A stretch of DNA of 63,649 nt, filler included, from Reclinomonas americana ATCC 50394 (lineage: Eukaryota), in NCBI GenBank assembly GCA_048213135.1. It is 15 parts of 15 records of this genome, joined end to end, with 100 filler letters (N's around TTAATTAATTAA, not from the genome) between each part and the next. Parts side by side here need not be neighbours in the genome. Positions count along the whole stretch, not along the records: positions 1 to 12,639 come from AFZH01022465.1; positions 12,740 to 16,184 come from AFZH01022470.1; positions 16,285 to 18,517 come from AFZH01022471.1; positions 18,618 to 26,023 come from AFZH01022472.1; 11 more parts are not named here. The stretch is one strand, 5' to 3'. Under the pieces are notes generated by a model that was not told the DNA's origin, did not search any database, and was given only the letters and a program-made list of their open reading frames with translations. Shown piece by piece: positions 1-23,491 of the stretch (position 1 is the first letter of the stretch; the number at the start of each line of letters is the position of its first letter). Both the position numbers and the translations under genes were made by a program.

Positions 1-1217
1 TCCAGAAGCCGCTGCAACGTTGCATCCGAGTTTGCACGAGCCGCCATTAGTGCAAGCTTCTCCACGAACTTGGCCGACGGTCGAACGCGCTCGTCACGCA
101 ACAAGAGATCCACCACGGCCACATGGTTGCACTGGACCGCACAGCGCAGAGGGAGATTCTTTCGTGCAGCTGGGTCCACACGGGCGTCGCGGAGAAGCAG
201 CTGTACAACGTCTTCGTATCCGTGGAAGCACGCCACCACCAGCGGCATGTTGTCGTTGGTGGCGGCATTCACCGATGGCAGCGAGAGGAGACATTCCACA
301 GTCTCCGTGCGGCCGGCATCCACCGCCGCCTCAATCGCCCAGTTGTTGAGATCGCCGACATACACACGGCGATCGACCAGCAGCAGGCGAAGCATGGAGA
401 TGTTGCCGGCTGCGGCGGAGAAGCGCACGGCCGCATTGCGCTCCTGAGCCGGGTTCACTGGATCGTCGTGTTCCATGACCAGCAACCAGTTCACAATCGA
501 CTGCCGATCGTTCAGCACCGCCAGCTGGAAGACGTCGTCGAACAGCTTCTTCTCGGTCTCCACAGGGAATGCGGACTGCCCCGCCGGAGGACAAGTAATC
601 CGCATGGTCACCAGTTCCTGCAGCGTTGGCACCGGAGCGCCACACGCCGCTGCCAAGCGAATGACGTACAGCAGTGGATCCTCGTCGAATAGCGGAGCCT
701 GCCACCGGCGTACCTGCCGCGTAATACGGGTGGAGTAGTCATACTTGTTGTCTACGGGCGGAGGCAACCAACGAGCCGCCACGCCGTCACCCTGCTCGAG
801 TGCAAGTCGCACCGTGTCGTACCGCCACGACAACCGCGCGTGTTCCTGTGGCTGTTGCTGATCCTGGTAGTACCGATCCCGCTCCCGCTGTCGCTGCTGA
901 ACCTCGGTATCATCCCACGCAGGCGACGGACAAGGGGCAATGTAGGCAAGTGAGTCGCCATTTCCATCGTACTCGCGCAGGTCGGTACCATACGCCGGCC
1001 GGCGATTGTCATACCTACTATCGATGGCCTTGTACGATGGCTCTGGAGGCTCGCCAGAGCGCGGACGCCTGTGAGGCTGACTCGGCTTCTGATCGGCGGC
1101 ACTCGTCAACAGACGATGCAAGTCGGCAAACATGCAGTGAGCATCGCTCTCCACAACGTGCTTCTGGCGTTCAGCGTCCACCCACGTGGCGGCGGCATTG
1201 ATCGTCTCACGAAACAT
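1..1217 (-). CDS. Ankyrin-repeat protein, family A copy 1 (3' end runs off the window)
   Basis: ATG at 1217 (MFRETINAAATWVDAERQKHVVESDAHCMFADLHRLL...). Nucleotides 1-1200 are nearly identical to 1961-3170 of copy A2. It is absent from the ORF track because no stop codon falls inside the window. Confidence 0.85.
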   Translation of the reverse strand, partial: MFRETINAAATWVDAERQKHVVESDAHCMFADLHRLLTSAADQKPSQPHRRPRSGEPPEPSYKAIDSRYDNRRPAYGTDLREYDGNGDSLAYIAPCPSPAWDDTEVQQRQRERDRYYQDQQQPQEHARLSWRYDTVRLALEQGDGVAARWLPPPVDNKYDYSTRITRQVRRWQAPLFDEDPLLYVIRLAAACGAPVPTLQELVTMRITCPPAGQSAFPVETEKKLFDDVFQLAVLNDRQSIVNWLLVMEHDDPVNPAQERNAAVRFSAAAGNISMLRLLLVDRRVYVGDLNNWAIEAAVDAGRTETVECLLSLPSVNAATNDNMPLVVACFHGYEDVVQLLLRDARVDPAARKNLPLRCAVQCNHVAVVDLLLRDERVRPSAKFVEKLALMAARANSDATLQRLL

Positions 1218-1398
1218 GTGAGTGAATGTGTGTGTGCAGGACTCACATGAAAAACTCATCACAGCATTTGAGCTCCGACACAGCTGCAGCGCAGTGCACA
1301 TGCAAGAAGCCGAGGTTGGTTGAATATAGTTGGACGTGGGTCACCAAGCCAGCTGTTGCTTCATTAAACATCCATGATGAACAAGTGCTGCCCCCTCA

Positions 1399-3192
1399 TC
1401 AAGCTGCATCGGGAAACATCTGTTGCACCCGCGCCAGCAACTCCTTGGCCTTCGCATGCTTGAGGAAGCGCACGATATAGCCCAAACTGCGCGCGTCGAG
1501 CTTCTGCTGCTGCAGGACGCGAGCCGTTCGTGTGGTGAAGATTGCCTCCAACATGCCGGTGTACGTACTGTAGCTGCTCGCGCGCCCCAGCCGGGTGGGA
1601 TAGCGATCGTCGTAGTAGTCGTCGAGAGCGCCACCTACGTCCTCCAGAGGGTCATAGGGCGCGTTGCGATCCTTCTCATGAAGCTTAAGCACGTCGACGA
1701 GCTTGTAGAGGACATATGCGACGGCGTTGGCCTCAGTGGACTCCAGCAGTACTCGAACGACGTCGGCCATGGCGTTGTCCGTGGCGTAGAGGAGTGCCTT
1801 CTCAGCCACAGCCGTCGTCTGCGCTCCGCCCGGTCTGCCACGCACATCACCAAGCAGCACGGCAAGGGCCCTGGCACGGCCCTTGGCGACAGCAGTATAA
1901 AACACCGCCTTCCACAACTTCACCATGTCCATGGTACCCTCTGGCAATAGCTGCCGATCGTCCAGAAGCCGCTGCAACGTTGCATCCGAGTCAGCACGAG
2001 CCGCCATTAGCGCCAGCTTGCCCACGTACTCGGCCGATGGTCGAACGTGCTCGTCGCGCAACAAGAGATCCACCACGGCCACATGGTTGCACTGGACCGC
2101 ACAGCGCAGAGGGAGATTCTCTTGTGCTGCTGGGTCCACATGGGCGTCGCGGAGAAGCAGCTGCACAATGTCTTCGTACCCGTGGAAGCACGCCACCACC
2201 AGCGGCATGTTGTCGTTGGTGGCGGCGTTCACCGACGTCATCGAGAGGAGCAACTCCACAGTCTCCGTGCGGCCGGCATCCACTGCCGCCTCAATCGCCC
2301 AGTTGTTGAGGTCGCCGACATACACACGGCGATCGGCCAGCAGCAGGCGAAGCATGGAGATGTTGCCGGCTGCGGCGGCGAATCGCACGGCAGCGTTGCG
2401 CTCCTGAGCCGGGTTCACTGGCTCGTCGTGTTCCATGACCAGCAACCAGTTCACGATGGCCTGCCGATCGTTCAGCACCGCCAGCTGGAAGATGTCGTCG
2501 AACAGCGTCTTCTCGGTCTCCACAGGGAATGCGGACTGCCCCGCCGGAGGACAAGTAATCCGCATGGTCACCAGTTCCTGCAGCGTTGGCACCGGAGCGC
2601 CACACGCCGCTGCCAAGCGAATGACGTACAGCAGTGGATCCTCGGTGAAGAGCGGAGCCTGCCACTGGCGTACCTGCCGCGTAATACGGGTGGAGTAGTC
2701 ATACTTGTTGTCTACGGGCGGAGGCAACCAGCGAGCCGCCACGCCGTCACCCTGCTCGAGTGCAAGCCGCACCGTGTCGTACCGCCACGACAACCGCGCG
2801 CCGTACTGTTCCTGTGGCTGTTGCTGATCCTGGTAGTACCGGTCCCGCTCCCGCTCTTGTTGTCGCTGTCGCTGTTGAACCTCTTTACCATCCCACGCAG
2901 GCGGTGGATATGGAGCAATGTACGCGAGTGTGTCGCCTTGTCCATCGTACTCGCGCAGGTCGGTACCGTACTCTGGGCCACGACCATACATACGATCGAT
3001 GTCCTTGTATGATGGCTCGGGAGGCCTGCCAGAGCGCGGACGCCTGGGAGGCTGACTCGGCTTCTGCTCGCCAGCACTCGTCAACAGACGATGCAAGTCG
3101 GCAAACATGCAGTGAGCATCGCTCTCCACAACGTGCTTCTGGCGCTCAGCGTCAACCCAGGTGACGGCGGCCGAGCGCGTCGCACAGAACAT
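1399..3192 (-). CDS. Ankyrin-repeat protein, family A copy 2 (full length)
   Basis: ORF 1399..3393; the ATG at 3192 aligns with the starts of A1 and A3. Ankyrin repeats include NNWAIEAAVDAGRTETVELLL, NMPLVVACFHGYEDIVQLLL and NLPLRCAVQCNHVAVVDLLL. Ends in TGA. Confidence 0.88.
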   Translation of the reverse strand: MFCATRSAAVTWVDAERQKHVVESDAHCMFADLHRLLTSAGEQKPSQPPRRPRSGRPPEPSYKDIDRMYGRGPEYGTDLREYDGQGDTLAYIAPYPPPAWDGKEVQQRQRQQERERDRYYQDQQQPQEQYGARLSWRYDTVRLALEQGDGVAARWLPPPVDNKYDYSTRITRQVRQWQAPLFTEDPLLYVIRLAAACGAPVPTLQELVTMRITCPPAGQSAFPVETEKTLFDDIFQLAVLNDRQAIVNWLLVMEHDEPVNPAQERNAAVRFAAAAGNISMLRLLLADRRVYVGDLNNWAIEAAVDAGRTETVELLLSMTSVNAATNDNMPLVVACFHGYEDIVQLLLRDAHVDPAAQENLPLRCAVQCNHVAVVDLLLRDEHVRPSAEYVGKLALMAARADSDATLQRLLDDRQLLPEGTMDMVKLWKAVFYTAVAKGRARALAVLLGDVRGRPGGAQTTAVAEKALLYATDNAMADVVRVLLESTEANAVAYVLYKLVDVLKLHEKDRNAPYDPLEDVGGALDDYYDDRYPTRLGRASSYSTYTGMLEAIFTTRTARVLQQQKLDARSLGYIVRFLKHAKAKELLARVQQMFPDAA

Positions 3193-3330
3193 GTGACTTG
3201 GAGTGATGACGTAATGCGTGTGTGCATGCAGGACATCATCCTCCAGCTTGTTCGTGTGTCCGTTCCCCGCCCACGGGCAGTGAAGTCTCGCGTTGATCGC
3301 TGCGGTGCATCTGTCGACGCTGACGCTGAC

Positions 3331-6300
3331 ATGAGCAGGTCTGTGTGTGTGTGCGCGCGGACGCGACATGCCGTCACACTCTCTCTCGCTCACTCCCTCT
3401 CGTCCTTCTCATCGTGCACTTGTTGAACGTCGCAGTGCTGCTCCGTCCACGCCCCGCAGCCGCACACTGATCCAATCTGTGATTGCGTGGATCCAATGCG
3501 CTGACGACAGCATCGGCGGTGCACGCGCTCACGATGTGCTCCCCGCCGACACGTGTGCTGCGCTGGTGCACACGCTGCAAGCGCGAATCGGCGACCCTCC
3601 TCCATCGTTGTTGGCACACACACGTGCGGTGGATCGCCTCATTGCCCACTGGCGTGAAAGTGTGAATGTTCCGTGGGGCGCTGGCATCAAGGCAGCGCTG
3701 ATTCGTCGTGGACTCCAACCTCCTGCTGCTGCTGCTGCGGCCTCCTCGCAAGCGTCCACGCAGACCTGTTGTGACGACCACTGTCCTCCACCACCGCCGC
3801 CAGAACCGCGAATGGAGACGCTGAATGTCGACTGGAACTTTGCAGACTTGCTGGAGGCAGTCAGGTGTGTGTGTGTGTGCATCCACCCACCCTGCCACAC
3901 ACACACACTCCTCGCGACTGACATTGTGCGGTGATGAGCAGGAGTGGCTCACTGACTCGCGACGATGTGGCCGCGTTTCCGACATCGTGCAGGCCGTCGC
4001 CGATCAATCAGGCGAACTCGTCAGCATCACCGCCTGTCGTTGTGGCTCTCATGGTGGCGGCGGCGACTGGTTGCCCGAACGCGGTTGTGCAGTCGCTGCT
4101 TGAGGCAGTGGCGACTCCGGAAGAACGATCGCGCCTGTTGGAGAAGGTGTTCCATCTGGCGCTGATCAACGGGCACGTCACGCTGGTCAGTTGGTTGCTG
4201 GAGACGTATCCTGCGGTGAACCCCGGTTGTGCCAGCAACGCCCCGTTGCGGTTCGCTGCCAAGGTCGGCGACGCTGGCATGGTCGAGTGTCTGCTGCACG
4301 ATCGTCGCGTGTATGCTGGCGATGGCGACAACTTTGCCGTGCTTGCGGCGGCACAGTCGGGCCACGTGGAAGTGCTGCGAGTGCTGGTGCAGTCTCCTGC
4401 CGTTTTCGCGGCCGTCAACAGCAATCAGCCTTTGGTGTTGGCCTGTGTGAACGGCCACGTGGAGACCGTCGACTTCCTGCTGCAACTTGTCGTAGTGGAC
4501 CCAGCTGTCAACAACAACCAGCCGATGTACGAGGCCATCAAAGCGTCCCAGACAGCGGTAGTGGAGCGGTTGTTGGCGTGTCCGCGAGCTCGCATTACGA
4601 CCGCAGCGGCGCAACTCGCCGCCAGTCGTGAGGACCTAGTTCCATTGTTGCGCTTGCTGCTGAACGATTCACGAGTCGATGCACAAATCGCTTGTGTTCT
4701 GCTGCGTGAGTCGCTAGTCTCTGCCGTCAAATCTGATCGAGCTCTGCTGTTGGCTGAGTTGCTTGCCGACGAGAGACTGCGAGGCATGCGCGACGTGTGC
4801 ACTGCTGGTCTGCGCGTTGCTGTCGAGAAGGGATCAGTGGGCGCGTGTCGGGTACTGCTGGACCACGGTGTTGCTCAGCCCGAGGTCGGGTTCTTGGCGC
4901 TGTCCACGTTTCTGTATACGTTACCCGCACTGCCAACTTCACACGCGGCTGTAGGGAGATGGTCGTTACCGCGGCTACCGCCACCATCACCACCATCGCC
5001 ACGTGCATCGGTGCCTCTCGACGATGTGGCGACTGAACTTTTGGACCTGCTCACGCAGGAGGAGAGGCACCACGGGGCCGGTGATTACGTCTTTCGCCGA
5101 GTGTTTGACATGTTGCTTGAAAGGTCGGGCGTCGACCAGATTCATCTGTTGCTCGAGCGCTCCACCGGAATGGGCGCAGTGCTGTGCAGCAACAACAACC
5201 ACATTCTCCGAACCTGTGTCAGCAAGAACATGCTCCGCGAGGTCGCATTGCTGTTGGCCTCTGTCCCCGACTGTGATCCGTCAGCGGCCAACAATGAGGC
5301 CATCCGCATTGCAGCTGGCATGAGCCAGCCTGCCATGGCTGAGCTTTTGCTCCAGGATCCTCGAGTGGACCCTTCGGCCGCCGACAACGAGGCCATCCGT
5401 ATCGCCGCCCGCATGGGCCATACCGCCGTGGCCGAGCTTCTGCTCCAGGATCGTCGAGTGAACCCTGCGGCCGCCAACAGCGAGGCGCTGCGGTCAGCTG
5501 TTCCACACGGTCACGTTCCCTTGGTGGCGATGCTGCTCCGAGATCGTCGAGTGGATCCTTTGGCCGTCAATGGCGAGGCGCTGCGAATCACTGCACGTAT
5601 GGGCCTTACCGCCGTGGCCGAGCTTCTGCTCCAGGATCCTCGAGTGGACCCTTCGGCCGTCAATAACGAGGCGCTGCGGTTGGCTGTTCTGCGCGGTCAC
5701 GTTCCTTTTGTGGCGATGCTGCTCCGAGATCGTCGAGTGGACCCTGCGGCCGCCAACAACGAGGCCATCCGTATTGCCGCCCGAATGGGCCATACCGCCG
5801 TGGCTGAGCTTCTGCTCCAGGATCCTCGAGTGGACCCTGCGGCCGTCAACAGCGAGGCGCTGCGGTCAGCAGTTCAACACGGTCACGTTCCATTGGTGGC
5901 GATGCTGCTCCGAGATCGTCGAGTGCATCCTTCGGCCGTCAATGACGAGACGCTGCGATGGGCTGCTCGCATGGGCAATACCGCCATAGCCAAGCTTCTG
6001 CTCCAGGATCCTCGAGTGGACCCCTCGGCCGCTGACAATGAGGCGTTGCAGTCGGCTGTTCAGGGCGGTCACGTTCGGTTGGTGGCGATGCTGCTGCGAG
6101 ATCGACGCGTGCACGTGGATCTGAATGCAGTTCTGCAAGGGGATGCTCTCCGTAAGGCTGCAGATGGTGTTCAGGCAACCCTTGTCGAATTGCTGGTGGC
6201 GCAACCCGGTGTGGGCCTGTCGGTTGATTGCCTGACGAGAACCATCGGTCTCCTGCGCAGCTCGAATCAAGGGAGCCAACAACGTGCTGTTCGTGTCACT

Positions 6301-7117
6301 GGTCGGCACGCGGCTGTGGTCGCCCATTTGCTGTGCCGGCAGGAGATGGTGGTGTCAGCTGCCAGCGTCCCTGCAACGGCAGACAGCTGGAAGCCATCCA
6401 AGTATGCGTATGGACCGTCAACGACTTTGGAAACATATGCCAAGACGCTACGTTGGATTCTGGAGGAGGCCAGGCAGCAGGAATGGCCTTCGTATCAGTG
6501 CTATAGCTATATTAATCGGCAGCCGCAGCCGCAGCGGAGTCCGTCCGCGTGGCCTCTGCATAGTCAGCGATGGGCACCACTGCAAGCCGTCTTGATTGCC
6601 TTCCCGGGCCACAGCACTGACATTCGACGTGCGCTGGGGACTCCGAAGAAGATCCCAGCGTGGTTTGCAGAAGCGGTGAGATGATGCTGGCTAGTGGGCT
6701 CGCCGACACAACGCTCCACCTGACATATCTGCGCCTGCCGTGTACGTACTACAGCTCAAGCAGTGGCTGAAGGATGCTCGCAGCATCTTCGGCAACGCCG
6801 CCAGCAGGAGGTACGCGGCTGGCCGTTCCGTGGAATGGGCGCTGCCGGATGGCGACCCGCGACCTCTGGTGACACTCTACCACCAACTGCATGACCCGAA
6901 ACGGTTGCGCGACGTGTACCGCCTGTTCGTTCCCGAAGTGCAGGAGTGCCCTATCGTGTCGGCAATGCGCGGAGTGCTGCAGGGCTTGGCGCGCGATGTG
7001 CTGCATCGAGTCTGCTTGGTGAAGTTGTACGCACGGGTGTTGGCACCGCGCTTGGTTGCCGCTGGTTGCCCCGCGTTGCCAGAGGAGCTGTTGTTGCACA
7101 TAGCAAGCTATTGTTGA
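3331..7117 (+). CDS. Ankyrin-repeat protein with C-terminal F-box-like motif, family B copy 1 (4 exons: 3331-3338, 3436-3864, 3942-6675, 6755-7117)
   Basis: GT..AG introns (CTGAC branch sites in introns 2 and 3) join ORFs 3347..3934, 3931..6684 and 6740..7117 in frame (MS|SAAPST..., EAVR|SGSL..., WFAEA|LKQWLK...). It has nine 31-aa DPxAxxNEAxR...LLxDxRV repeats and ends PALPEELLLHIASYC*. Confidence 0.85.
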
Positions 7118-7247
7118 TTTTTTAAACTAGAAGAAACAAGAACACCGTCCTTTGCCAGAGGTACTGCGTTGTTAGGCAAGATCAAGATGCTTATCATCAT
7201 GCGGGACCCTGTTCGTTGGTGAATGAAGCAGTAGATTGTAATCATAT

Positions 7248-8702
7248 CTATAGTATGTTGCTGTTGGCCATCGTGCACTGCAGCAGCACTCGAACGACAT
7301 CGGCCATGGCAGTGTCCGTGGCGTAGGAGAGCACTTTCTCGGCCATCGCCGTCAACTGTGCACCCTCCGGTCTGCCGCGCGCTTCGCCAAGCACCACGGC
7401 AAGGGCCTTGGCACGGCCCTTGGCGACGGCAGTATAAAACACCGCCTTCCACAACTTCACCATGTCCACAGTACCCTCTGGCAACAGCTGCCTATCGCCA
7501 AGAAGCCGCTGCAACGTTGCATCCGAGTCAGCACGAGCCGCCATTAGCGCCAGCTTGCCCACGTACTCGGCCGATGGTCGAACGCGCTCGTCGAGCAACA
7601 AGAGATCCACCACGGCTACATGGTTGCACTGGACCGCACAGCGTAGAGGCAGATTATCCTGTGCTGCTGGGTCCACACGGGCGTCGCGGAGTAGCAGCTG
7701 TGCAACGTCTTCGTATCCGTGGAAGCACGCCACCACCAGCGGCATGTTGTCGTTGGTGGCGGCATTCACCGACGGCAGCGAGAGGAGCAACTCCACAATC
7801 TCCGTGTGGCCGGCATCCACCGCCGCCTCAATCGCCCAGTTGTTGAGATCGCCGGCATACACGCGGCGATCGGCCAGCAGCAGGCGAAGCATGGAGATGT
7901 TGCCGGCTGCGGCGGCGAATCGCACGGCAGCGTTGCGCTCCTGAGCCGGGTTCACTGGATCGTCGTGCTCCATGACCAGCAACCAGTTCACGATGGCCTG
8001 CCGATCGTTCAGCACGGCCAGCTGGAAGATGTCGTCGAACAGCGTCTTCTCGGTCTCCACAAAGAATACAGGCCGTCGGTGTGTCACACGCATGGTCACC
8101 AGTTCCTGCAGCGTTGGCACGGGAGCGCCACACGCCGCTGCCAAGCGAATGACGTAGAGCAGCGGATCCTCGTCGAATAGCGGAGCCACCCGCCGCATAT
8201 TGTATGTGTCGGGAGGCAGCCAGCGAGCCGCCACGCCACCGCCCTGCTCGAGCGCAAGTCGCACAGTGTCGTACCGCCACGACAAACGCGCGCCGTACTT
8301 CGGCTCTGGCGGCTGCTCTCTCAGGTAATACCAGTTCCACTGTCGGAGGTGTACCCGTTGCCGCTGTTGAACTTCGTTATCATCCCACGCAGGCGGCGGA
8401 TAAGGAGCAACGTAATCAAGTGGGTCGCCTTTTCCGGATCCATGGTCTTGGTGCAAATCGGTACCGTCCTCGAGCTCCGGGCAACTGCCTTTCAAACGAT
8501 CGATCACCTTGCACGGCGGCTCTGGAGGCCTGCCAGAGCGCGGACGCCTGGGAGGCTGACTCGGCTTCTGCTCGCCAGCACTCGTCAACAGACGATGCAA
8601 GTCGGCAAACATGCAGTGAGCATCGCTCTCCACAACGTGCTTCTGGCGTTCGATGTCCACCCAGGCGACGGCGGCCGTACGCGTGATCGTCTCACGATAC
8701 AT
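7248..8702 (-). CDS. Ankyrin-repeat protein, family A copy 3 (C-terminally truncated, possibly a pseudogene)
   Basis: 484-aa ORF collinear with A2 up to ...ADVVRVLL. It then diverges and stops at TAG after about 10 residues, whereas A2 continues for roughly 110 aa more. Confidence 0.8.
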   Translation of the reverse strand: MYRETITRTAAVAWVDIERQKHVVESDAHCMFADLHRLLTSAGEQKPSQPPRRPRSGRPPEPPCKVIDRLKGSCPELEDGTDLHQDHGSGKGDPLDYVAPYPPPAWDDNEVQQRQRVHLRQWNWYYLREQPPEPKYGARLSWRYDTVRLALEQGGGVAARWLPPDTYNMRRVAPLFDEDPLLYVIRLAAACGAPVPTLQELVTMRVTHRRPVFFVETEKTLFDDIFQLAVLNDRQAIVNWLLVMEHDDPVNPAQERNAAVRFAAAAGNISMLRLLLADRRVYAGDLNNWAIEAAVDAGHTEIVELLLSLPSVNAATNDNMPLVVACFHGYEDVAQLLLRDARVDPAAQDNLPLRCAVQCNHVAVVDLLLLDERVRPSAEYVGKLALMAARADSDATLQRLLGDRQLLPEGTVDMVKLWKAVFYTAVAKGRAKALAVVLGEARGRPEGAQLTAMAEKVLSYATDTAMADVVRVLLQCTMANSNIL

Positions 8703-8836
8703 GTGTGAGTGAGTGATGACGGACGTAATGTGTGCAGGACATCATCCTCCAGCTTGTTCGTGTGTCCGTTCCCCGCCCACGGGCAGTGAAGTCTCGCGTT
8801 GATCGCTGCGGTGCATCTGTCGACGCTGACGCTGAC

Positions 8837-8847
8837 ATGAGCAGGTC

Positions 8848-8879
<32 letters not shown>

Positions 8880-11800
8880 GACGCGACATGCCGCTCTCAC
8901 ACTCTCTCTCGCTCACTCTCGTCGTACACTTGTTGAACGTCGCAGTGGTGCTCCGTCCACGCCCCGCAGCCGCACACTGATCCAATCTGTGATTGCGTGG
9001 ATCCAATGCGCTGACGACAGCATCGGCGGTGCACGCGCTCACGATGTGCTCCCCGCCGACACGTGTGCTGCGCTGGTGCACACGCTGCAAGCGCGAATCG
9101 GCGACCCTCCTCCATCGTTGTTGGCGCACACACGTGCGGTGGATCGCCTCATTGCCCACTGGCGTGAAAGTGTGAATGTGCCGTGGGGCGCTGGCATCAA
9201 GGCAGCGATGATTCGTCGTGGACTCCAACCTCCTGCTGCTGCTGCTGCGGCCTCCTCGCAAGCGTCCACGCAGAACTATAGCTACGGCTTCGGCTACCGT
9301 CCTCCTCCACCGCCGCCAGAACCGGGAATGGAGACGCTGAAGGTCGACTGGAACTTTGCAGACTTGCTGGAGGCAGTCAGGTTTGTGTGTGTGTGCATCC
9401 ACCCACACTGCCACACACACCCACTCCTCGCGACTGACGTTGTGCGGTGACGAGCAGGAGTGGCTCACTGACTCGCGACGATGTGGCCGCGTTTCCGACA
9501 TCGTGCAGGCCGTCGCCGATCAATCAGGCGAACTCGTCAGCATCACCGCCTGTCGTTGTGACTCTCATGGTGGCGGCGGCGACTGGTTGCCCGAACGCGG
9601 TTGTGCAGTCGCTGCTTGAGGCAGTGGCGACTCCGGAAGAACGATCGCGCCTGTTGGAGAAGGTGTTCCATCTGGCGCTGATCAACGGGCACGTCACGCT
9701 GGTCAGTTGGTTGCTGGAGACGTACCCTGCGGTGAACCCCGGTTGTGCCAGTAACGCCCCGTTGCGGTTCGCTGCCAAGGTCGGCGACGCTGGCATGGTC
9801 GAGTGTCTGCTGCACGATCGTCGCGTGTATGCGGGCGATGACGACAACTTTGCTGTGCTGACGGCGGCGCAGTCGGGCCACGTGGAAGTGCTGCGCGTGC
9901 TGGTGCATTCTCCTGCCGTTTTCGTGGCCGTCGACAACAATCAGGCTTTCGTGCTGGCCTGTGCGAACGGCCACACGGAGACTGTTGACTTCCTGCTGCA
10001 ACTGGATGTGGTCGACCCCACCGTCAACAACAACCAGCCGCTGTACGAGGCCATCAAGATGTGTCGGACGGCGGTGGTGGAGCGGTTGCTGGCGTGCCCG
10101 CGAGTGCGTATTACAACTGCAGCGGCGCAACTCGCCGCCAGTCGTGAGAACCTGCTGCCGATGCTGCGCTTGGTGCTGCACGATTCACGAGTCGATGCGG
10201 AAATTGCTCGCAGTCTGCTGAGCGAGTCGCTGATCTCTGCCATCAAATCTAATCAAGCGCTGCTGTTGGCTGAGTTGCTTGCCGACGAGAGAGTGCGTGG
10301 CATGCGCGACGTGTGCACTGCTGGTCTGCGCGTTGCTGTCGAGCAAGGCTCGGTGGCCGCGTGTCGGGCACTGCTGGATCACGGTGTTGCGCAGCCCCAC
10401 GTCGGTTTCTCGGCGCTGACCAAGCTTCAGCCCCAGGCACCCGCAGCACCACCAACTACACAGGCGGCTGCGGGAAGATGGTCGTTACCGCGGCTACCGC
10501 CACCATCACCACCATCACCGCTTACATGGGCACCTCTTGTCGATGTGGCGACTGAACTGTTGGACATGCTTACGCGGGAGGAGAGGCACCGTGGGGCCAG
10601 CGAGGCCGACTTTCGACGAGTGTTTGACTGGTTGCTCGGAAAGTCGCGCGCCGATCGGATTCATCTGTTGCTCGAGCGCTCCATCGGAATGGGCGCAGTG
10701 CTGTGCAGCAACAACAACCACATTCTCCGAACCTGTGTCAGCAAGAACATGCTCCGCGAGGTCGCATTGCTGTTGGCCTCTGTCCCCGACTGTAATCCGG
10801 CAGCGGCCGACAATCAGGCCATCCGCATTGCAGCTGGCATGAGCCAGCCTGCCATGGCTGAGCTTCTGCTCCAGGATCCTCGAGTGGACCCTGCGGCCGC
10901 CAACAACGAGGCCATCCGTATCGCCGCCCGAATGGGCCATACCGCCGTGGCCGAGCTTCTGCTCCAGGATCGTCGAGTGAACCCTGCGGCCGTCAACAGC
11001 GAGGCGCTGCGGTTGGCTGTTCAGCAGAGTCACGTTCATGTTGTGACGATGTTGCTCCGAGATCGTCGAGTGGATCCTTCGGCTGTCGACAGCGAGGCGC
11101 TGCGGTGCGCTGCTCGCATGGGCCACATCGACATGGTGAAGCTTCTGCTCCAGGATCCTCGGGTGGACCCCTCGGCCGCAGACAACGAGGCGTTGCGATC
11201 GGCTGTTCAGGGCGGCCACGTTCGCTTGGTGGCGATGTTGCTGCGAGACCGGCGCGTGGATCCGAATGCCGCTCTGCAAGCGAATGCTCTCAGTGCGGCT
11301 CCGCAAAATGTTCAGGCCACCCTTGTCGAAATGCTGGTGGCGCGGCCCGGTTTGGACGCGTCGGTTGATAGCCTGAGGAGAACCATTGGTCTTTTGTGTG
11401 GTGCGAATGAGCGGAACCAAGTGAGTGCTATTGGTGTGACCGGTCGTCACGCGGCTGTGGTTGCTCGTTTGCTGTGCCGGCACGAGATGGTGGCGTCAGC
11501 TGCCAGCGCCCCCGCATCGGCAGACAGCTGGAAACCGCTCAAGTATCCGTATGCAGCGCCAACGACAGTGGCAACGTATGCCAAGACGCTGATTTGGATT
11601 CTGGAGGAGGCCAGCCGGGGTGCGCAGCCATCGAATCAATACTACCGGCCACCGCCGGCTCCTCCCGCGTGGCCTCTGCACAGTCAGCGATGGGCACCAC
11701 TGCAAGCCGTCCTGATTGCCTTCCCGGGCCACAACACTGACATTCGACGTGCCCTGGGGACTCCGAAGAAGATCCCAGCGTGGTTTGCAGAAGCGGTGAG

Positions 11801-12237: not shown

Positions 12238-12639
12238 GTGGCGTTTTTTTCAACAACAACAACAATTCATTCACCAACAAACAAATGAAGAATCGAAGTT
12301 TACGGTCTACAGAAGACTTTGTCCACTCAATCCAGGGGGGGTGTAGGTCGGTGTATTAATACTTGAAAAGAAATAATGCCCGGCATTCCGAAGCAAAAAA
12401 AAATAATGCTGGTCGAGAAAAACATAGAATGCCTCGCTGTAAAGTGCCTAGAAACGGCAGGAAACGTGGTTCAAATTCGAAGCGGCTGCCTTTTTGTGCC
12501 TAGTATGAACGTGTTGGGGGACCTGACGCAGCAGCTACGTAGGTGACCAGGTTCTACAAGCGCCCGCTGTCCGAGGACAGTCGACAAGTTGGCTTTGGGG
12601 AGAAACAAAGCGTCGAAGTTCACAAGTCAATCTGTCTGA

Positions 12640-12739
12640 NNNNNNNNNNNNNNNNNNNNNNNNNNNNNNNNNNNNNNNNNNNNTTAATTAATTAANNNNN
12701 NNNNNNNNNNNNNNNNNNNNNNNNNNNNNNNNNNNNNNN
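12640..12739. other. Artificial scaffold spacer N-TTAATTAATTAA-N (also at ~16185, 18518, 26024, 28661, 32670, 35322, 36998, 41702, 43199, 44994, 49373, 57234, 61776)
   Basis: An identical 12-mer giving stops in all six frames sits centred in N runs, about 100 nt in total, at every gap. Confidence 0.97.
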
Positions 12740-12813: not shown

Positions 12814-13069
12814 CTGTCTGTCTGCCTGCGCTGTCTTATTCTCGTCGCTCATCGATCGATCGCGATCAATGAATGGTGCAATTGTGAAACCCTCGACTGC
12901 CACGACGTCGACACGAATACGAAGCACGCTCGAAAGAAGGAGAAACACATCGGGATCAGAACAGCGACATAAAACAAGAGGAGACAGCGACGTCGACAAT
13001 CCCAGCAGACAATAGTCCTGCACAATTCTCACACGTTAACTCGCACGCAAGAGCAGGATGATCAGCAGG

Positions 13070-14507: not shown

Positions 14508-15688
14508 ATGACCACCGTGAGGGTTTGTCTGCGTTCCTCCATGTGCACCCCACCATGCGCCTCACTGTTTGCGTACAGGTGTTGGAGGGACACACTGGTG
14601 CGGTGAGTTGCATCGCCATCACTCCCGACGGTCGCCATTTTATCAGCGCAAGTCTCGACTCCATCATTCGAGTGTGGTGTGTGGCGAGTGGAGAGCAAGT
14701 GCGTCAGTTGGAGGGACACGCCAACTGGGTGTTCTCTGTCGTCGTCACACCCGACGGACGGCATGCTGTGAGTGCAAGCCAAGACGCATGTGTGCTAGTG
14801 TGGTCACTGGCAAGTGGCAGGGAAGTGCGACGGATGGAGGGGCACACTGCGAGAGTGTGGTCAGTGGCTGTCACTCCCGACGGTCAGCACGTCGTGAGTG
14901 GTAGTGGTGACGGAACAGTGCGTGTGTGGTCACTGGCGAGCGGGAAGGAGGTGCGACGCTTGGAGGGGCACCACGGGGAGGTTATCTCGGTCGCCATTAC
15001 ACCCGACGGGCGACACATCCTGAGTGGCGGTGGCTTTCGAGATTCTACCATTCGTGTGTGGTCGCTGGCGACTGGAGAGAAAGTGCGGTGGTTAGAGGGG
15101 CACCGTGAGGCGGTGCTTTCCGTCGCGGTTACTGCCGACGGGCAGCACGTTGTGAGCGGCGGTGGAGACATGACCGTGCGCGTGTGGTCACTGGAGATTG
15201 GCGAGGAGGTGCGACGAATGGTCGGCCACACGAATTTGGTGTGGTTTGTCGTCGTCACTCCCGACCAGCAGCATGTGGTGAGCGGCAGTCACGACAGGAC
15301 TGTGCGCGTGTGGTCGCTGGCAACGGGGGAGGAGGTGCGACGGTTGGAGGGGCACACTGATGAGGTGCAGTGCGTCGCCGTCACCCCGGACGGCGAGCAC
15401 ATCCTCAGTGGCAGCGCCGACACGACCGTGCGAGTGTGGTCGTCGCCGTGCGGCCTCGCCAGGAGCGAGTTGTCGGCAGCGCGACAGGCCATGCAAGTGG
15501 TGCGGGAGATGCAGCTGCAGGAGAAGGAGGAAGGAGAAGGAGAGCTCGAGGGGAAGGAGGAAGAAGGAGAAGAAGATCTAGAGGAGCAGGTCGACTCGCG
15601 GTGCCTTCCAGAGATGGTACTGCGCTGTTTTATCGTCGAGGATGCGGAGTTCGTGTTGTATCGACGTCTTGCGGGTCCGCTGTGGTGA
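14508..15688 (+). CDS. WD40-repeat protein copy 2
   Basis: Micro-exon MTTVR, GTTTGT..TACAG intron, seven WD40 repeats, and the same tail with a longer acidic linker. Confidence 0.88.
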
Positions 15689-16758: not shown

Positions 16759-17905
16759 ATGGCTGCTGATAAGGTGTGTTTGTTAGCGTGTGCGTGTGCC
16801 TTCCTCACTCTACAACTCACATGCGCGTCACACACAGGTGCTGAAAGGACACCTCCGTGGTGTGTGGTCGGTCGCCATCACTCCCGACGGTCTGCACGCA
16901 ATCAGTGGCGGCGACGACACGTCTGTGCGAGTGTGGTCACTTGCCAGTCTAGCAGAAGTGCAGCGTTTCAAGGGACACACGAGTTCAGTGCACTCTGTTG
17001 CCGTCACACCCGACGGACGACACGTGATCAGTGGAAGTCAAGACTCCACTGTGCGTGTGTGGTCACTGGCGAGCGGGAAAGAGGTGCGGCGCATGGACAA
17101 CGATTTTTTCCCGGTGAGGGCAGTTGCTGTCACACCCGACGGTGTGCATGTTGTGAGCGGGGATGAAGATGATGGCATTGTGCGAGTGCGGTCGCTGGCC
17201 ACTGGTAAGCAAGTGCGACGGTTGGAGGGGCACGCTGGGACAGTGTGGAGCGTCGCCATTACTCCCGATGGCCAGCACATTGTCAGTGGAGGTGATGACG
17301 GCACGGTGAGAGTGTGGTCGCTGGCGAGTGGAGAGGAGGTGCGACGATTGGAAGGGCACACAGACAATGTGCGCTCGGTGGCGGTCTCTCTCAACGGTCA
17401 GTACATTGCGAGTGCGAGTCATGATGAGACAGTGAGGGTGTGGTCGCTGGCGAGTGGAGAAGAGATTCGGTGCTTTGAGACGCCCAATGTCTGGGCGTTG
17501 TGTGTCGCTTTCACGCCCGATGGGCAGCACATTGTGAGCGGGGGTGGAGACGACAGAGTGCGCGTGTGGTCGCTGGCGACTGGCGCAGAGGTACGACGGC
17601 TGGAGGGACACAAAGAGTGGGTGATGTCTGTCGTCGTCACACCCGATGGCGAGCACATCCTCAGTGGCAGCTGGGACACGGCTATCCGAGTGTGGTCCTC
17701 GCCGAGTGGCCTCGCCAGGCAGGAGCTCGACGGCGCGCAGATGGCCATGCGTGTGGTGCAGGAGATGCAGCTGCAGGAGAAGGGTGATGAGGGCGAAGAC
17801 GAGAAGGTGGATTCGCGTTGCCTGCCGGAGATGGTGCTGCGTTGTTTCATCGTCGAGGATGCGGAAGTGGTGCTGTATCGAAGCCGTGCAGATCCGCTGT
17901 GGTGA
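16759..17905 (+). CDS. WD40-repeat protein copy 3
   Basis: Micro-exon MAADK, GTGTGT..ACAG intron, seven repeats, conserved tail ending ADPLW*. Confidence 0.88.
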
Positions 17906-18198: not shown

Positions 18199-19508
18199 AT
18201 GATGCCACCTGTGAGTATGCGTGTTTGTGTGTGAGAGGAGGGACCAATGCAGAGGTTGCTTCTTCTCTCGCTTGCGTGCACACTATTCCTCCCTCTCTGT
18301 CTCTCTCTCTCTCACTCGTGAGCCTCACTCACTGCGAACCTCGCAGCCACTGGAGGGCCACACTAATGGAGTGTGGTCTGTCGCCGTCACTCCCGACGGT
18401 CTGCATGCGGTCAGCGGCAGTGTCGACAAGACTGTGCGAGTGTGGTCACTTGCAAGCGGGGAAGAGGTGCGCCGGTTGCAGAGACACTCGGGTCCTGTTC
18501 TCTCTGTCGCCGTCTCGNNNNNNNNNNNNNNNNNNNNNNNNNNNNNNNNNNNNNNNNNNNNTTAATTAATTAANNNNNNNNNNNNNNNNNNNNNNNNNNN
18601 NNNNNNNNNNNNNNNNNCCCAATGGCCAGCACATTGTGAGCGGCAGTGCTGACAAGACAGTACGCGTGTGGGATATGGCCAGTGGAGAACAGATGCGACG
18701 ATGGAAGCGACACACTGGGTGGGTGTGGTCTGTTGCGGTCACTCCGGATGGCCGGCATGTCGTGAGCGGGAGTGATGACGGGACGGTGCGAGTGTGGTCG
18801 ATGGAGAGCACGAAACAAGTGCGGCTGTTGGAGGACCACACTCAGACGGTGCGCTCTGTCGCCGTCTCCCCGGATGGGGAGCACATTGTGAGTGGCGGTG
18901 GCCTTCTCCATGATCACGAGATTCGTGTGTGGTCGTTGGCCACTGGAGAAACGTTGCGACGGTTGGTGGGGCACACAGCTACGGTTCTTTTCGTCACCGT
19001 CACTCCCGATGGTCACCATATCGTGAGCGGGGGTGGTGACAAAACGGTGCGTGTGTGGTCGCTGGCGAGTGGCGACGAGGTGCGGCGATTCGACTGGCAC
19101 ACTGAATGGGTGTTCTCTGTCGTTATCACTGCGGACGGTCGACACATAGTCACCGGCAGTCAAGACAAAACCGTGAGAGTGTGGTCGGTGGCGACGGGGG
19201 AGGAGGCACGACGTTTGGAAGGTCACACTCAAGCGGTAATGTCTGTCGCCGTCACCCCCGACGGCGAGCACATTCTCAGTGGCGGCGCAGACATGACCGT
19301 CCGAGTGTGGTTCACACCGTGCGGCCTCGCGCGGGAGGAGCTCGATGGCGCGCGAATGGCCATGCATGCCGTGCAGGAGATGATGGAGGAGGAAGAAGAA
19401 GAGGAAAAGGTGGATTCGCGATGCCTGCCGGAGATGGTGCTGCGTTGTTTCATTGTGGAGGAGGCCGAGGTCTTGCTAAATAGACGCGTTGTTGATCCTT
19501 TCCGATGA
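18199..19508 (+). CDS. WD40-repeat protein copy 4 (spans an artificial spacer)
   Basis: Micro-exon MMPP and a GTGAGT..GCAG intron. The coding sequence ...VAVS|PNGQHIVSG joins directly across the 18518-18617 spacer and matches copy 5 VAVSPDGQHIV. Seven repeats. Confidence 0.85.
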
Positions 19509-19749: not shown

Positions 19750-19849
19750 ATGACAACTACGATGGTATGCGTGTGTGTATGTGTGTGAGAGAGAAAAATG
19801 AAGAATGATCCATGCAGAGGTTGCGTGCACAACGCACCAGCTCACTTCC

Positions 19850-19880
<31 letters not shown>

Positions 19881-20972
19881 TGCTAACACACTGTTACAAC
19901 TCGCTGCTTGCGTCACGCACAGGTGCTGGAGGGCCACACTTATGGAGTGTGGTCTGTCGCCATCACTGGCGACAGTCTGCATGCGGTCAGCGGCGGTGCC
20001 GACAAGACTGTGCGAGTGTGGTCACTCGTGAGTGGAGCACAAGTGCGACTGCTGGAGATACGCACAGGTCCGGTGCTCTGCGTTGCCGTCTCGCCCGATG
20101 GCCAACACATTGTGTGTGGCGGTGCGGACAAGACAGTGCGCGTGTGGGATATGGCCAGCGGAAGACTGATGCGACGATGGGGGCGACACGCTGCTTCGGT
20201 GCGGTCTGTCGCGGTCACTGCAGATGGCCGGCACGTCGTGAGCGCGAGTGATGACAGGACGGTGCGAGTGTGGTCGATGGAGAGCACGAAACAAGTGCGA
20301 CGCTTGGAAGGACACACGCAGGCAGTGCACTCTGTCGCCATCACTCCGGATGGGGAGCGCGTTGTGAGTGGCGGTAGCCTGTGTGATAACAAAATTCGAC
20401 TGTGGTCATTGGCCAGCGGAGAACAGGTGCGACGGTTGGTGGGGCACACACATTCGGTGCTCTCCGTCGCCATTTCTACCGATGGTCGCTATGTAGTGAG
20501 CGGGGGTGGTGATCGGACGGTGCGAATGTGGTCACTCGTGAGCGGCAAGGAAGTGCGGCGGTTCGAAGGGCACACTGAGTCGGTGCTATCGGTCGCTGTC
20601 ACTCCCGATGGTCGACACGTTGTGAGCGGCAGTCTGGACGAAACTGTGAGAGTGTGGTCGGTGGCGTCTGGGGAGGAGGTGCGACGTTTGGAGGGACATG
20701 CGAGTGCTGTGTCGTCAGTCGCTGTCACTCCCGATGGTGAGCGCATCGTGAGCGGCAGCTGGGACGCGACACTCCGAGTGTGGTCCACGCCGTGCGGCCT
20801 CGCGCGGGAGGAGCTTCGTGTGGCACGAGTGGCCATGTGCGCCGTGAGGGAGATGCTGGAGGAGAGCGAGGAGGAAGAGGTGGATTCGCGGTGCCTGCCG
20901 GAATTGGTGCTGCGTTGCTTCATTGTGAAGGATTCAGAGGTAGTGGTGTACAGGTGGCTCGCAGATGCGTGA
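19750..20972 (+). CDS. WD40-repeat protein copy 5
   Basis: Micro-exon MTTTM, GTATGC..ACAG intron, seven repeats, tail VDSRCLPELVLRCFIV. It is the closest paralog of copy 4 (shared DMASG and SMESTKQVR). Confidence 0.88.
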
Positions 20973-21383
20973 CCGCTTGATTATGGTCGTCGACGTCGCT
21001 TGTCGAATGCAAGTAAATGACTCGGATCATGGCATAGAGTACGCTTGAATGAAGGGCATGTATGCAGAATGCAGAACGTGAGAGTGGCAACAGCAAAAGT
21101 GGGGAGAATGCACAGACGTCGGTCCCCATCGTTTCGATATGCTGCGGAGTGTATGCCGTCTCGCTTCTACGCTGGTGTGTGTGTCGCACTGCCATTTGCC
21201 GTCGTCTTCAATACCCCGCGCCTCACTCTGTGTCTGTCCTCACAGACAACGCCCCGTGTGTTCCCGACGTCGCGCCGACCTTTTTCTGATGTTGGTGAGT
21301 CTCACTGCGTCATTCGCCTCTCTCACGTGCCATCTCACCTTGCATACAATAGCCACCTCGCCGACGCTCTTCTTTGCATCCAA

Positions 21384-23491
21384 GGAAGAGATTCAGCGTG
21401 TGGAGCAGCAGATTGATGACGTGGAGCAGAAGATCAATCGGGTCGAACTGGAGTTGGCGCAGTCGTCGTCGTCGTTGTCGCCCAGCGAAGTGCAGTACTT
21501 GCGCGAGAAAGAGCGGCAGCTGCGAGAGAAAGAGCGGCAGCTGCGCGAGGACAAGCGACAGCTGCGCGAGGAGCACATTATCAAAATCAACCTCGACATG
21601 CGGACCTCCGACAAGAGTTGCTTCCACTCTTGCCTCCTTTTCTCTCTCTCTCTCTTGTGTGTGCTATGTGTCTCACTCTCTCTCTCACTCTTCTGTCACT
21701 CCCCCTCTCTTATCTGTCTCTTTCACTCTCTCACTTCCTCTCTCTCACTCTCCTTCTCTCTCTCATTCTCTCTCCGTTCCCCTTCTCCCCTTGTCTCAAA
21801 CTCTCTCCCTCACGCTCTCTCTCTCTCTCTCAGTCTCTCTCTCTCTTCCTTTCTCTCTCACTCTTCTGTTCTCACTGGTCTCTCTCTCTCTCTCATGCTA
21901 AGGTTGCTCACTTCCCACCCCCGTCCTCTCCCTTTCTTTGCCAGGCGGAAACCTGATCCATCCAGCGTCAGACACATTTCCCACGTACGATGCCATTCGC
22001 CGCTCTCATTTGTTTAGTCTCGACCCCGCCACCAACACCCTCGTCGCCGTCGCCCGGGTGGAGGACGCCACGGCCATCACGCTTCCCGACGGTGCGAAAT
22101 GGCCGTCGCTCGAGTCCCCCACCATCTTTGTTCGCGACTTTTACCACCGCCTCTTCACCGAGTACTTTGGCGAGCTCGACCCGGCGCGCAGCCGCCATGG
22201 CTTGTATCGATGGGCTGTCACGGGTACACCTGGCATCTCCAAGTCGGCGTTTGGCTTGTATGTGTTGTATCGCGCCGTGTGCATGGGCAAGCGCATTATC
22301 TACGAGCCGGCCAGCCGCCGCGCTCGCCTGCTCACGCCGCACCAGGGTGAGCGTACTGGCCCTGACGGCGAACTGCTGCTGGAGCAATTTGGACCGGTGG
22401 ATTTGAACCTGGTGGACGGCCGCAAGCCCTTCCAGTTCTCGTCCACGGAAAGCAAGTTCACGCTGCTGGTGTCGTCGCCCAACCGCGCCATCTACAAGGA
22501 GTTCCTCAAATGGCCGGGCTCGATGCAGGTCTATTTGCCGGTGTACGAAGAGCAAGAGATGGACCAGCTGCGTCAGGTGGCCTTCCCAACGGTGCAGCGA
22601 CGCGACATGATGGAGCGCATGGCTAAGTGGGGTGGAGTGCCGCGACACGTGCTGTCGCTCGGCGATACGGAACAGCAGCAGCATCTGGTGCATTCGCTGA
22701 GTCAGGTGGTGGCGAGCGATTTGCTGGCGATTCCCTCCTTGATGGAGGCTGGCGATCGCGAGAACATCGTTCATCGCCTGGCGCACTTTGAGGTTGATCG
22801 GAAGGTCTTTAAGACCGCCGGGTACCGCTTTGCTTCGTTGTTTGTGATGCGCGCGCTGCTGGAGCGGTGGGAGCGACAAGCCGGCCGAGATGCGCGCCTC
22901 TTCCTGCGCATGGCACTGGACCATGAATTCGCCGGTGGTGCCTACGGCGACTTGTTCGAGGGTATGGCCCACTTGGAGCTGTAGCGCGGCGGCGAGTTTC
23001 GCTGCCGCCGACTGGTTCAAGGAGGAGGTGGCAGTGAGGAATTCACCCTCACCCTGCCACCCGCGGAGGAGCGCTTCTTCGACAAAGTCAGCGAGATTGA
23101 CGCCGCGGCTGTCGATATCCGGTGGCGGCCGTACTCCAAGACCTTTGCCGCCGTCGACACGATTGGACCAGACGGCTCGCTGGGCAACATGACCATCAAC
23201 ACGGACCACAATATCAAGATTGCGCCGAAGAAGGGGGCGAGCGGAGTGCTGGCTGTGGCCGAGCAATTGGGGTTCTTGCAGGAGGGCGACCGGAGGAGGA
23301 TCAAGTTCTTTTGGCTGGTGCCGGATGTGCGATTTGACAAGTTTGTGGTGCCGCACAAGTTTGAGTTCCCCGTCGACGAGGAGAACGTGCCGAAGGAGCT
23401 GTTGGAGGTGGCCGCGCGGTTGGATCAGTATGTGATGGAGATCAAGACCGATGTGTTTGTGAAGCCAGATGGCCCTGCTGCGGTGCGATAA
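21384..23491 (+). pseudogene. Crinkler/RHS-type (CR) protein: coiled coil + P-loop NTPase + PD-(D/E)xK-like REase, with an in-frame TAG at 22982-22984 (5' start not resolved)
   Basis: The coiled-coil exon EEIQRVEQQIDDVEQKI...YLREKERQLREKERQLRE is spliced (intron 21617-21944) to IFVRDFY...VTGTPGISKS...LVDG...LLVSSP...WGGVPRHVL...HRLAH...FAS...GDLFE. After the TAG the same frame continues RGGEFRCRRL...WRPYSKTFAAVD...NMTINTDHNIK...FFWLVP...QYVMEI to TAA. Confidence 0.8.

What the first reader, a model, noticed from the sequence alone, without database searches (positions are those of the whole stretch)
1..23491. Putative conflict/immunity island: ankyrin and WD40 paralog arrays with F-box-like C-termini next to a Crinkler-type nuclease gene
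Seen: ten repeat-protein genes (5 ankyrin, 5 WD40) in tandem arrays with diverging repeat residues, followed by a CR-type NTPase+REase gene, then an abrupt switch to single-copy housekeeping genes. Seven of the ten end in a short conserved tail with an LPE-hydrophobic motif. Established: ankyrin and WD40 domains plus an F-box act as SCF substrate adaptors, and Crinkler/RHS proteins are eukaryotic conflict effectors. Inference: this may be a diversifying repertoire of ubiquitin-ligase adaptors used against intracellular parasites or viruses, or as effectors against prey or hosts. The link between the ankyrin and WD40 blocks crosses the 12640-12739 spacer.
Basis: partly seen in the sequence, partly recalled or inferred. 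Interest (0 to 1): 0.78.

Follow-up and report, generated by a model that had tools for sequence, protein, structure and literature searches.

The report
Huge variable WD40 family, false island
The supposed "immunity island" is an artefact of stitched assembly pieces, but its ring-shaped WD40 genes belong to a very large family in a probable jakobid flagellate whose binding face varies greatly while an unnamed helical tail stays fixed, like a built-in recognition library.

Summary
The genes are real; the island is not. The window is 15 contigs joined by identical 100-base spacers. The ankyrin contig (1-12639) belongs to another scaffold: the second haplotype continues the WD40 array with more WD40 genes and no ankyrin block. 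The Crinkler-type gene has an in-frame stop and is missing at that place in the other haplotype.

The two "LPE" tails are unrelated. The WD40 tail motif occurs 1,119 times in the assembly (control 2). Only 653 keep the proline, no F-box or SOCS profile matches, and it models as two long helices, so it is not an F-box. The propeller's top face is hypervariable (dN 4-6.5 times the rest between paralogues; dN/dS 1.2-1.6 on gene-wide dS, at most 1.0 on local dS, 0.5 between alleles). The tail is under purifying selection.

The tail of two ankyrin genes (63 matches genome-wide) may be a one-helix F-box: weak SKP1 support, 0.37 against control 0.12.

Best reading: a recognition repertoire docking on a shared, unknown partner. 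The scan already found this WD40 family on other pieces of this genome.

The parts
1..1217 (-). Ankyrin gene type A, copy A1; 3' end cut by the contig edge
   Evidence: Pfam Ank_2 E=1.9e-13; 91% to A2
1399..3192 (-). Ankyrin gene type A, copy A2 (about 597 aa from first Met of the frame); no LP tail
3812..7117 (+). Ankyrin gene type B, copy B1; predicted exons 3812-3864, 3942-6675, 6755-7117; 1049 aa; 9 near-identical 31-aa repeats; C-terminal long helix, LP, short helix (possible one-helix F-box)
   Evidence: F-box-like PF12937 E=0.068, below cut-off; weak SKP1 pass
7248..8702 (-). Ankyrin gene type A, copy A3; ends about 110 aa earlier than A2
9328..12237 (+). Ankyrin gene type B, copy B2; predicted exons 9328-9380, 9458-11795, 11875-12237; 917 aa; 5 near-identical repeats; same tail as B1
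12335..12639 (.). Dispersed repeat at the end of contig C6998
   Evidence: 91-98% matches on 8 other contigs, 6 near full length
12640..12739 (.). Artificial spacer (N44-TTAATTAATTAA-N44) joining two contigs of different scaffolds; 13 more identical spacers in the window
13058..14191 (+). WD40 gene W1: tiny first exon, 7 repeats, helical-hairpin tail (13997-14188)
14508..15688 (+). WD40 gene W2 (374 aa), tail 15443-15685
16759..17905 (+). WD40 gene W3 (360 aa), tail 17699-17902; modelled as 7-blade propeller plus helices 288-316 and 327-350
18199..18517 (+). 5' part of a WD40 gene at the end of contig C7004
18618..19508 (+). 3' part of a WD40 gene (6 repeats plus tail) at the start of C7005; may be a different gene from 18199-18517
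19750..20972 (+). WD40 gene W5 (354 aa), tail 20787-20969
21353..21616 (+). Predicted coiled-coil N-terminal exon of the CR-type gene (boundaries approximate)
   Evidence: sequence; weak coiled-coil Pfam hits; assignment as header is inference
21945..23491 (+). CR/RHS-type P-loop NTPase plus nuclease-like frame, interrupted by an in-frame TAG at 22982-22984; probable pseudogene
   Evidence: RHSP E=0.071; four paralogous loci, three with frame changes or stops; absent at this place in C407

Best explanation
The region is three separate things that the window places side by side.

(1) One tandem cluster of a genome-wide family of single-propeller WD40 proteins: at least 1,119 motif sites, roughly half that per haplotype (inferred). 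Shown: the residues on the propeller's top face vary strongly while the scaffold and a 55-60 residue two-helix tail are held constant, and arrays gain and lose copies between haplotypes. Inferred: each protein binds a different target with its top face, and the constant hairpin plugs it into one shared partner. The most likely purpose is cytosolic recognition of foreign or fast-changing proteins. Coupling to the ubiquitin system is the leading guess for the partner (about 0.35), but not through an F-box.

(2) An unlinked, recently duplicated head-to-head pair of ankyrin genes. Type B belongs to a family of about 60 and ends in a probable one-helix F-box that may bind SKP1 (about 0.5).

(3) A broken, haplotype-specific CR-type gene with no shown link to either.
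For: Artefact: spacers, contig map, second haplotype C407/C408 and partner contigs C6521-C6524. Family size: 1,119 matches, control 2; 11 of 12 sampled sites outside the window are WD40 plus tail. Variability: positions 11, 12, 14, 30, 32 have 3.5-3.8 bits against at most 2.6 elsewhere, 62 genes; 311 different four-residue combinations in 364 repeats. Paralogue pairs: top-face dN 0.35, 0.67, 1.29 against 0.09, 0.14, 0.20 for other repeat sites; tail dN/dS 0.14-0.18. The same loops are under diversifying selection in fungal HNWD receptors (PMC1805685, passages). Model: pLDDT 91.8, two long tail helices. A transcribed relative exists: Reclinomonas americana EST, 80-81% identical to family members in hand. 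ankB tail: LP and I invariant in 16 of 16; score 0.37 with SKP1, best control 0.12, runs agree in at least 34% of contacts, partner pLDDT at least 50. That mark was reached by 51 of 78 solved and 2 of 108 mismatched pairs, but at 0.60 or under by only 5 of the 78 and by all 4 mismatches that passed (of 180); for eukaryotes 39 of 65 and 2 of 126. A one-helix F-box can bind Skp1 (cowpox CP77; PMC4353913, passages). SKP1 and Elongin C genes are present.
Against: Positive selection is not cleanly shown. Between 9 allele pairs top-face dN/dS is 0.53 (95% 0.36-0.72). Between paralogues it falls to 1.0, 0.80 and 0.86 when the top-face codons' own, inflated dS is used. Position 11 was kept and position 10 dropped after seeing the entropy, and the gene sample is not random. 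No target or partner of the WD40 tail is known; SKP1 and Elongin C binding of this tail was not tested. The SKP1 pass is weak, used a stand-in SKP1 from a metagenome contig (42 of 52 residues identical in the C-terminal half), did not use the alignments, and may reflect memory of solved SKP1-F-box complexes. No expression data for the window's own genes.
Confidence: 0.5

Rival explanations
1. One reading: one conflict island in which ankyrin and WD40 genes share an F-box-like tail and act as SCF adaptors beside a working Crinkler nuclease.
For: LP-hydrophobic motif in 7 units; weak SKP1 pass for the ankB1 tail, 0.37 against control 0.12; WD40 array and CR gene are truly adjacent on C7005.
Against: Ankyrin contig on another scaffold; tails unrelated; proline missing in 466 of 1,119 WD40 tails; 0 of 32 WD40 tails match an F-box or SOCS profile at E<=10; CR gene has a stop and no allele.
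Confidence: 0.05
2. The WD40 tail is a divergent cullin-ligase box after all (F-box, SOCS or VHL-like), so the family is a giant set of CRL1/2/5 substrate receptors like the nematode and plant F-box expansions.
For: Variable binding domain plus constant small module is the pattern of C. elegans F-box genes (PMC8120010, passages); hydrophobic spacing after the LP fits a cullin-box pattern (recalled); SKP1 and Elongin C exist.
Against: Proline is dispensable and the invariant core is VLRCF; the helix after LP is modelled 24 residues long, not a short F-box helix; no L-x3-C/A/S-x3-hydrophobic BC-box pattern (recalled motif) by eye in the first helix.
Confidence: 0.15
3. The hairpin is an oligomerisation or signalling module. 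The propellers are sensors that assemble with each other or with NLR/kinase partners, as fungal HNWD sensors do, with no link to ubiquitin.
For: Two long amphipathic helices; hypervariable positions match the fungal HNWD loops; earlier unchecked notes report NACHT-WD40 and ankyrin-kinase families in this genome.
Against: No NACHT or effector domain in these genes; self-association not tested.
Confidence: 0.2
4. The family expanded by unequal crossing-over and drift; the top face is merely unconstrained and most copies are redundant.
For: Allelic dN/dS below 1; local-dS ratios at or below 1; arrays differ in gene number between haplotypes.
Against: Scaffold and tail are under steady purifying selection (0.14-0.41) in every divergence bin; only 2 of 150 scored tails contain a stop; top-face dN exceeds gene-wide dS in the three deeper bins.
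Confidence: 0.1

Closest known systems
Podospora anserina HNWD/NWD allorecognition receptors (het-d, het-e); PMC1805685, passages read
   Same: Near-identical WD40 repeats with two pairs of variable residues in the d-a loop and b-c turn on the propeller top face
   Different: Here single 7-blade propellers without NACHT or HET domain, hundreds of genes instead of about ten, and a constant C-terminal hairpin
Highly repetitive WD40 propellers, PDB 5yzv (Thermomonospora) and 2ymu
   Same: Best fold matches, rmsd 1.1-1.3 A, 37-39% identity
   Different: Matches cover the propeller only, not the tail
Expanded F-box families of Caenorhabditis; PMC8120010, passages read
   Same: Clustered, copy-number-variable genes with a variable binding domain and a conserved small module
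   Different: Module there is an N-terminal F-box; here it is C-terminal and fails F-box tests
Poxviral ANK/F-box (PRANC) proteins such as cowpox CP77; PMC4353913, passages read
   Same: Ankyrin repeats, linker, truncated C-terminal F-box; one helix can suffice (applies to ankB only)
   Different: Spliced cellular genes of 900-1050 aa; no PRANC profile match; the review says ANK motifs were not seen in cellular F-box proteins
WSB and ASB SOCS-box proteins (recalled)
   Same: WD40 or ankyrin repeats with a C-terminal helical ligase-binding box
   Different: No SOCS_box profile match in 32 or 16 tails; BC-box cysteine present in only 2 of 16 ankB-type tails
Crinkler-RHS (CR) NTPase+REase proteins; PMC5289972, passages read (review of Zhang et al. 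2016, original not seen)
   Same: Helical header, P-loop NTPase, nuclease-like C-terminus; dispersed paralogues
   Different: This copy carries an in-frame stop, a non-canonical P-loop residue and only a sub-threshold RHSP hit

Membership tests
F-box (WD40 tail) | Conserved LP at the start of helix 1 | tested here: not met
   Present in 5 of 5 window copies but in 653 of 1,119 genome-wide
F-box (WD40 tail) | Match to an F-box profile | tested here: not met
   0 of 32 tails at E<=10
F-box (WD40 tail) | Short helices after LP | tested here: not met
   Model gives one 24-residue helix, pLDDT about 77-79; prediction only
F-box (WD40 tail) | Binds SKP1 | not tested
   The one complex job went to the ankB tail
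Truncated C-terminal F-box (ankB tail) | LP followed by a short amphipathic helix | tested here: met
   L, P and I invariant in 16 of 16; helix 110-119 modelled
Truncated C-terminal F-box (ankB tail) | Match to an F-box or PRANC profile | tested here: inconclusive
   1 of 16 at E=0.068, 13.4 bits against cut-off 24.3
Truncated C-terminal F-box (ankB tail) | Binds SKP1 | tested here: inconclusive
   Weak pass, 0.37 against best control 0.12, stand-in SKP1
SOCS/VHL box (both tails) | BC box L-x3-C/A/S-x3-hydrophobic (recalled) and SOCS_box profile | tested here: not met
   No SOCS_box hit in 32 or 16 tails; pattern fits only the 2 ankB tails of 16 aligned
SOCS/VHL box (both tails) | Binds Elongin BC | not tested
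HNWD-type NLR | NACHT domain | tested here: not met
   No NACHT hit among the families shown; gene models of 354-374 aa are filled by propeller and tail
HNWD-type NLR | Top-face hypervariable positions | tested here: met
   against PMC1805685 (mapping by loop position is my inference)
HNWD-type NLR | Positive selection on those positions | tested here: inconclusive
   1.2-1.6 on gene-wide dS, 0.8-1.0 on local dS, 0.53 between alleles
Crinkler-RHS NTPase+REase | P-loop NTPase domain | tested here: inconclusive
   Walker A-like motif visible; RHSP E=0.071; paralogue nSTAND E=0.018; all below cut-off
Crinkler-RHS NTPase+REase | REase-fold nuclease domain | tested here: inconclusive
   No Pfam hit; motif resemblance is recalled
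Crinkler-RHS NTPase+REase | Intact reading frame | tested here: not met
   In-frame TAG; TAG is a stop here

The most novel reading that the evidence does not exclude
A jakobid flagellate carries an antibody-like library of several hundred single-propeller WD40 receptors that couple through a new kind of two-helix docking module (neither F-box nor SOCS box) to one shared degradation or signalling machine, beside a family of about 60 cellular ankyrin proteins with poxvirus-style truncated F-boxes: a large cell-autonomous immune system in a deep-branching eukaryote.
Probability: 0.3. Interest if true: 0.8.

Novelty: new variant of a known kind. Interest (0 to 1): 0.55.

Why it matters
How free-living protists recognise viruses and intracellular bacteria is largely open. 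A family of over a thousand assembled copies with a variable face and one constant module offers a direct handle: a single pull-down with the 60-residue tail would name the shared partner. If the ankB tail binds SKP1, cellular ankyrin/C-terminal-F-box proteins exist in Discoba, a layout described mainly from poxviruses, intracellular bacteria and some insects (PMC4353913). The negative result matters too: gene neighbourhoods read across these spacers cannot be trusted.

Tried and rejected

TAG reassignment: rejected, TAG ends 5 of 119 WD40 genes.

Zero-length gap at 18518-18617 (the join reads in frame): doubtful, since repeat periodicity explains it and the other haplotype has three more genes there; the 5' part has no clear allele (83-86%).

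WD40 tail: no PDB sequence match, no usable Atlas hit. The library search gave 6 hits at E<=0.001; P0066 is a low-complexity repeat and was discounted.

ankB tail: no hit among 8,000 scored candidates, Atlas hits only 0.80-0.81, no Foldseek match at E<=0.001, VIA-align best Z 5.6 on generic helical hairpins with no F-box listed. These blanks do not exclude an F-box.

Search for a close SKP1 protein returned nothing, nor did viral contigs.

USP36/42 gave no close relative (best 37-52% identity), so lineage rests on one EST.

Ankyrin genes: regional dN/dS 0.13-0.75, none above 1; no site-level test.

No fold or Atlas result was obtained for the CR protein, so its nuclease fold stays unverified.

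Rows dropped: 2 of 11 haplotype-A genes (W1, W5) lacked a clear allele; 49 of 119 genes were not full length; acidic linkers were left out of tail counts.

Paper searches (listings only apart from four papers read in passages) showed no title or abstract start on a jakobid WD40 family; supplements were not opened and may bear on this.
Full report
Window structure. The window holds 14 identical 100-base spacers (44 N, TTAATTAATTAA, 44 N) between 15 pieces. In the held genome (G000, 108 Mb, 16,441 contigs) 1-12639 is all of C6998, while 12740, 16285 and 18618 begin C7003, C7004 and C7005; C7006-C7008 match the next three pieces exactly. C6999-C7002, 12.6 kb, are skipped and hold six more tailed WD40 genes. 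C6998 ends in a repeat found on 8 other contigs.

The ankyrin block is not next to the WD40 array. Scaffolds C407 and C408 are 84-98% identical to window 12761-42477 and to C6999-C7002, including single-copy genes, so I read them as a second haplotype. Beyond the C6999 counterpart, C408 runs on for 19 kb with no match to C6998. C6998 has its own partners, C6521 and C6522 (95-98%), flanked by C6523 and C6524, which pair with C6997 and C6996.

Ankyrin genes. Two unrelated types lie head to head (A on minus, B on plus) and the pair is duplicated at 87-91%. A1 is cut by the contig edge, A3 ends early, and no A copy has an LP tail. B1 and B2 splice cleanly to 1049 and 917 aa and differ in repeat number, 9 against 5. 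Regional dN/dS is 0.13-0.75. The A/B promoter-side region occurs only on C6998 and its partners, but the B tail has 63 matches in the genome, all 63 candidates scored, many weak; one examined member is another ankyrin protein. In 16 aligned tails L, P and a downstream I are invariant. One of 16 touches F-box-like at E=0.068. The model shows a long helix, a loop, LP and a 10-residue helix (overall pLDDT 57, last 40 residues 71-86). With a stand-in SKP1 the tail scored 0.37, best control 0.12, runs agreeing in at least 34% of contacts, partner pLDDT at least 50. The mark was reached by 51 of 78 solved and 2 of 108 mismatched pairs, but at 0.60 or under by only 5 of the 78 and by all 4 passing mismatches of 180; SKP1-F-box complexes are solved, so the pass may be from memory. 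A one-helix F-box is known to bind Skp1 in cowpox CP77 (PMC4353913, passages). I put SKP1 binding at about even odds.

WD40 family. W1, W2, W3 and W5 have a 5-9 codon first exon and one long exon. The fourth unit spans a spacer and may be two genes. A tail search had 1,552 candidates; all 150 scored matched at E<1e-14. The strict motif occurs 359 times (control 0), the relaxed core 1,119 times (control 2), and 11 of 12 sampled sites, mostly non-proline, are WD40 plus tail. Both haplotypes are assembled at least here, so about half that number per haplotype is my estimate. Against 1.84 billion representatives the tail profile found 6 proteins: a Reclinomonas americana EST (E=6e-28), two diverged WD40-plus-tail proteins from unnamed assemblies, two short fragments and one repeat artefact. 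The EST is 80-81% identical to family members in hand and 60-69% to the window's genes. So the organism is probably a jakobid and the family is transcribed in at least one; the window's own genes have no expression data.

The WD40 tail is not an F-box. The proline is present in 653 of 1,119 sites; the fixed core is VLRCF. None of 32 tails matches F-box or SOCS profiles. The tail does not align with the ankB tail (probability 0.3%). The model (pLDDT 91.8) shows helices 288-316 and 327-350 after a 7-blade propeller, whose closest folds are repetitive bacterial and designed propellers. Binding partners were not tested.

Selection. In 62 genes five repeat positions have 3.5-3.8 bits of entropy and all others at most 2.6. 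Four of them flank the conserved residues of the d-a loop and b-c turn, where Podospora HNWD repeats are under diversifying selection (PMC1805685, passages). In 70 full-length genes 364 repeats give 311 different combinations. Between 9 allele pairs dN is 0.054 on the top face and 0.026 elsewhere and in the tail, against dS 0.10; dN/dS 0.53. In disjoint paralogue pairs (5, 15 and 26 pairs in the three deeper bins) top-face dN/dS on gene-wide dS is 1.24, 1.32 and 1.57, other repeat sites 0.24-0.31, tail 0.14-0.18; on the top codons' own dS it is 1.0, 0.80 and 0.86; the two shallow bins give 0.40 and 0.64. This is counting with partly post-hoc sites on a non-random sample: strong evidence of focused variability, moderate evidence of positive selection.

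CR-type gene. It follows W5 on the same contig. It has a predicted coiled-coil exon, a P-loop motif and a nuclease-like end, with an in-frame TAG at 22982-22984; TAG is an ordinary stop here. Profile support is sub-threshold; the CR assignment rests on layout as reviewed in PMC5289972 (passages) and on recall. Four paralogous loci exist, one open over 475 residues. C407 has no match to the gene and carries a different exon upstream of the shared anchor at window 23956, although gaps in C407 leave some doubt. It looks like a dispersed, dying copy, not a partner of the array.

Mechanism. Shown: family size, variable top face, constant two-helix tail, copy-number change. Inferred: each propeller binds a different target and the tail docks on one shared partner; ubiquitin-linked degradation is the leading guess, oligomeric signalling the main rival. 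Earlier notes of this scan describe the same family on other pieces and the same spacer artefact; they are unchecked leads, and the hairpin wording follows one of them, confirmed here. One note reports the tail on an E2-like protein, which would favour the ubiquitin reading; I did not test it.

Verdict. Island: artefact. WD40 repertoire: real, a new variant of known variable-repeat recognition families, partner unknown. ankB tail: possible truncated F-box. Interest 0.55.

Noticed in passing
L021 (G000:C7000) 3215-4474, minus strand: A T4 Rnl2-type RNA ligase gene (PF09414 E=3e-20, PF18043 E=1e-6) sits at the end of the WD40 cluster that the window skips.
   Followed up: partly
window 12761-42477 against G000:C407: The two apparent haplotypes differ by 3-15%, and synonymous divergence between WD40 alleles is 0.10: very high heterozygosity, a hybrid, or two strains in one assembly.
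   Followed up: partly
window 15689-16060: Three or four decayed tandem copies of the W2 3' end follow the gene, a trace of local slippage or unequal crossing-over.
   Followed up: no
window 1402-1560, minus strand: The end of ankyrin gene A2 has hydrophobic spacing in the same register as the ankB LP helix but without the proline; no Pfam hit.
   Followed up: partly
L247 (G000:C66:11001-12500): A diverged copy of the WD40 tail sits in a 71-codon frame without WD40 repeats; it may be a separate exon or the tail on another kind of protein.
   Followed up: no
window 27370-28042 and 30763-31938: Tandem repeats of about 133 and 290 bases, 84-90% identical, inside and after a membrane-protein gene.
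   Followed up: no
window 33237-37485, 46053-47180, 49930-50918, 51905-56440: Housekeeping genes: a fatty-acid-hydroxylase/AGMO-like gene and a MutL-like gene (both recalled from sequence), USP36/42 and cytochrome bc1 14 kDa subunit. Several introns begin GTTGCG.
   Followed up: partly
L101, L103, L129-L135: One Elongin C-like gene and at least three SKP1-like loci are present.
   Followed up: partly
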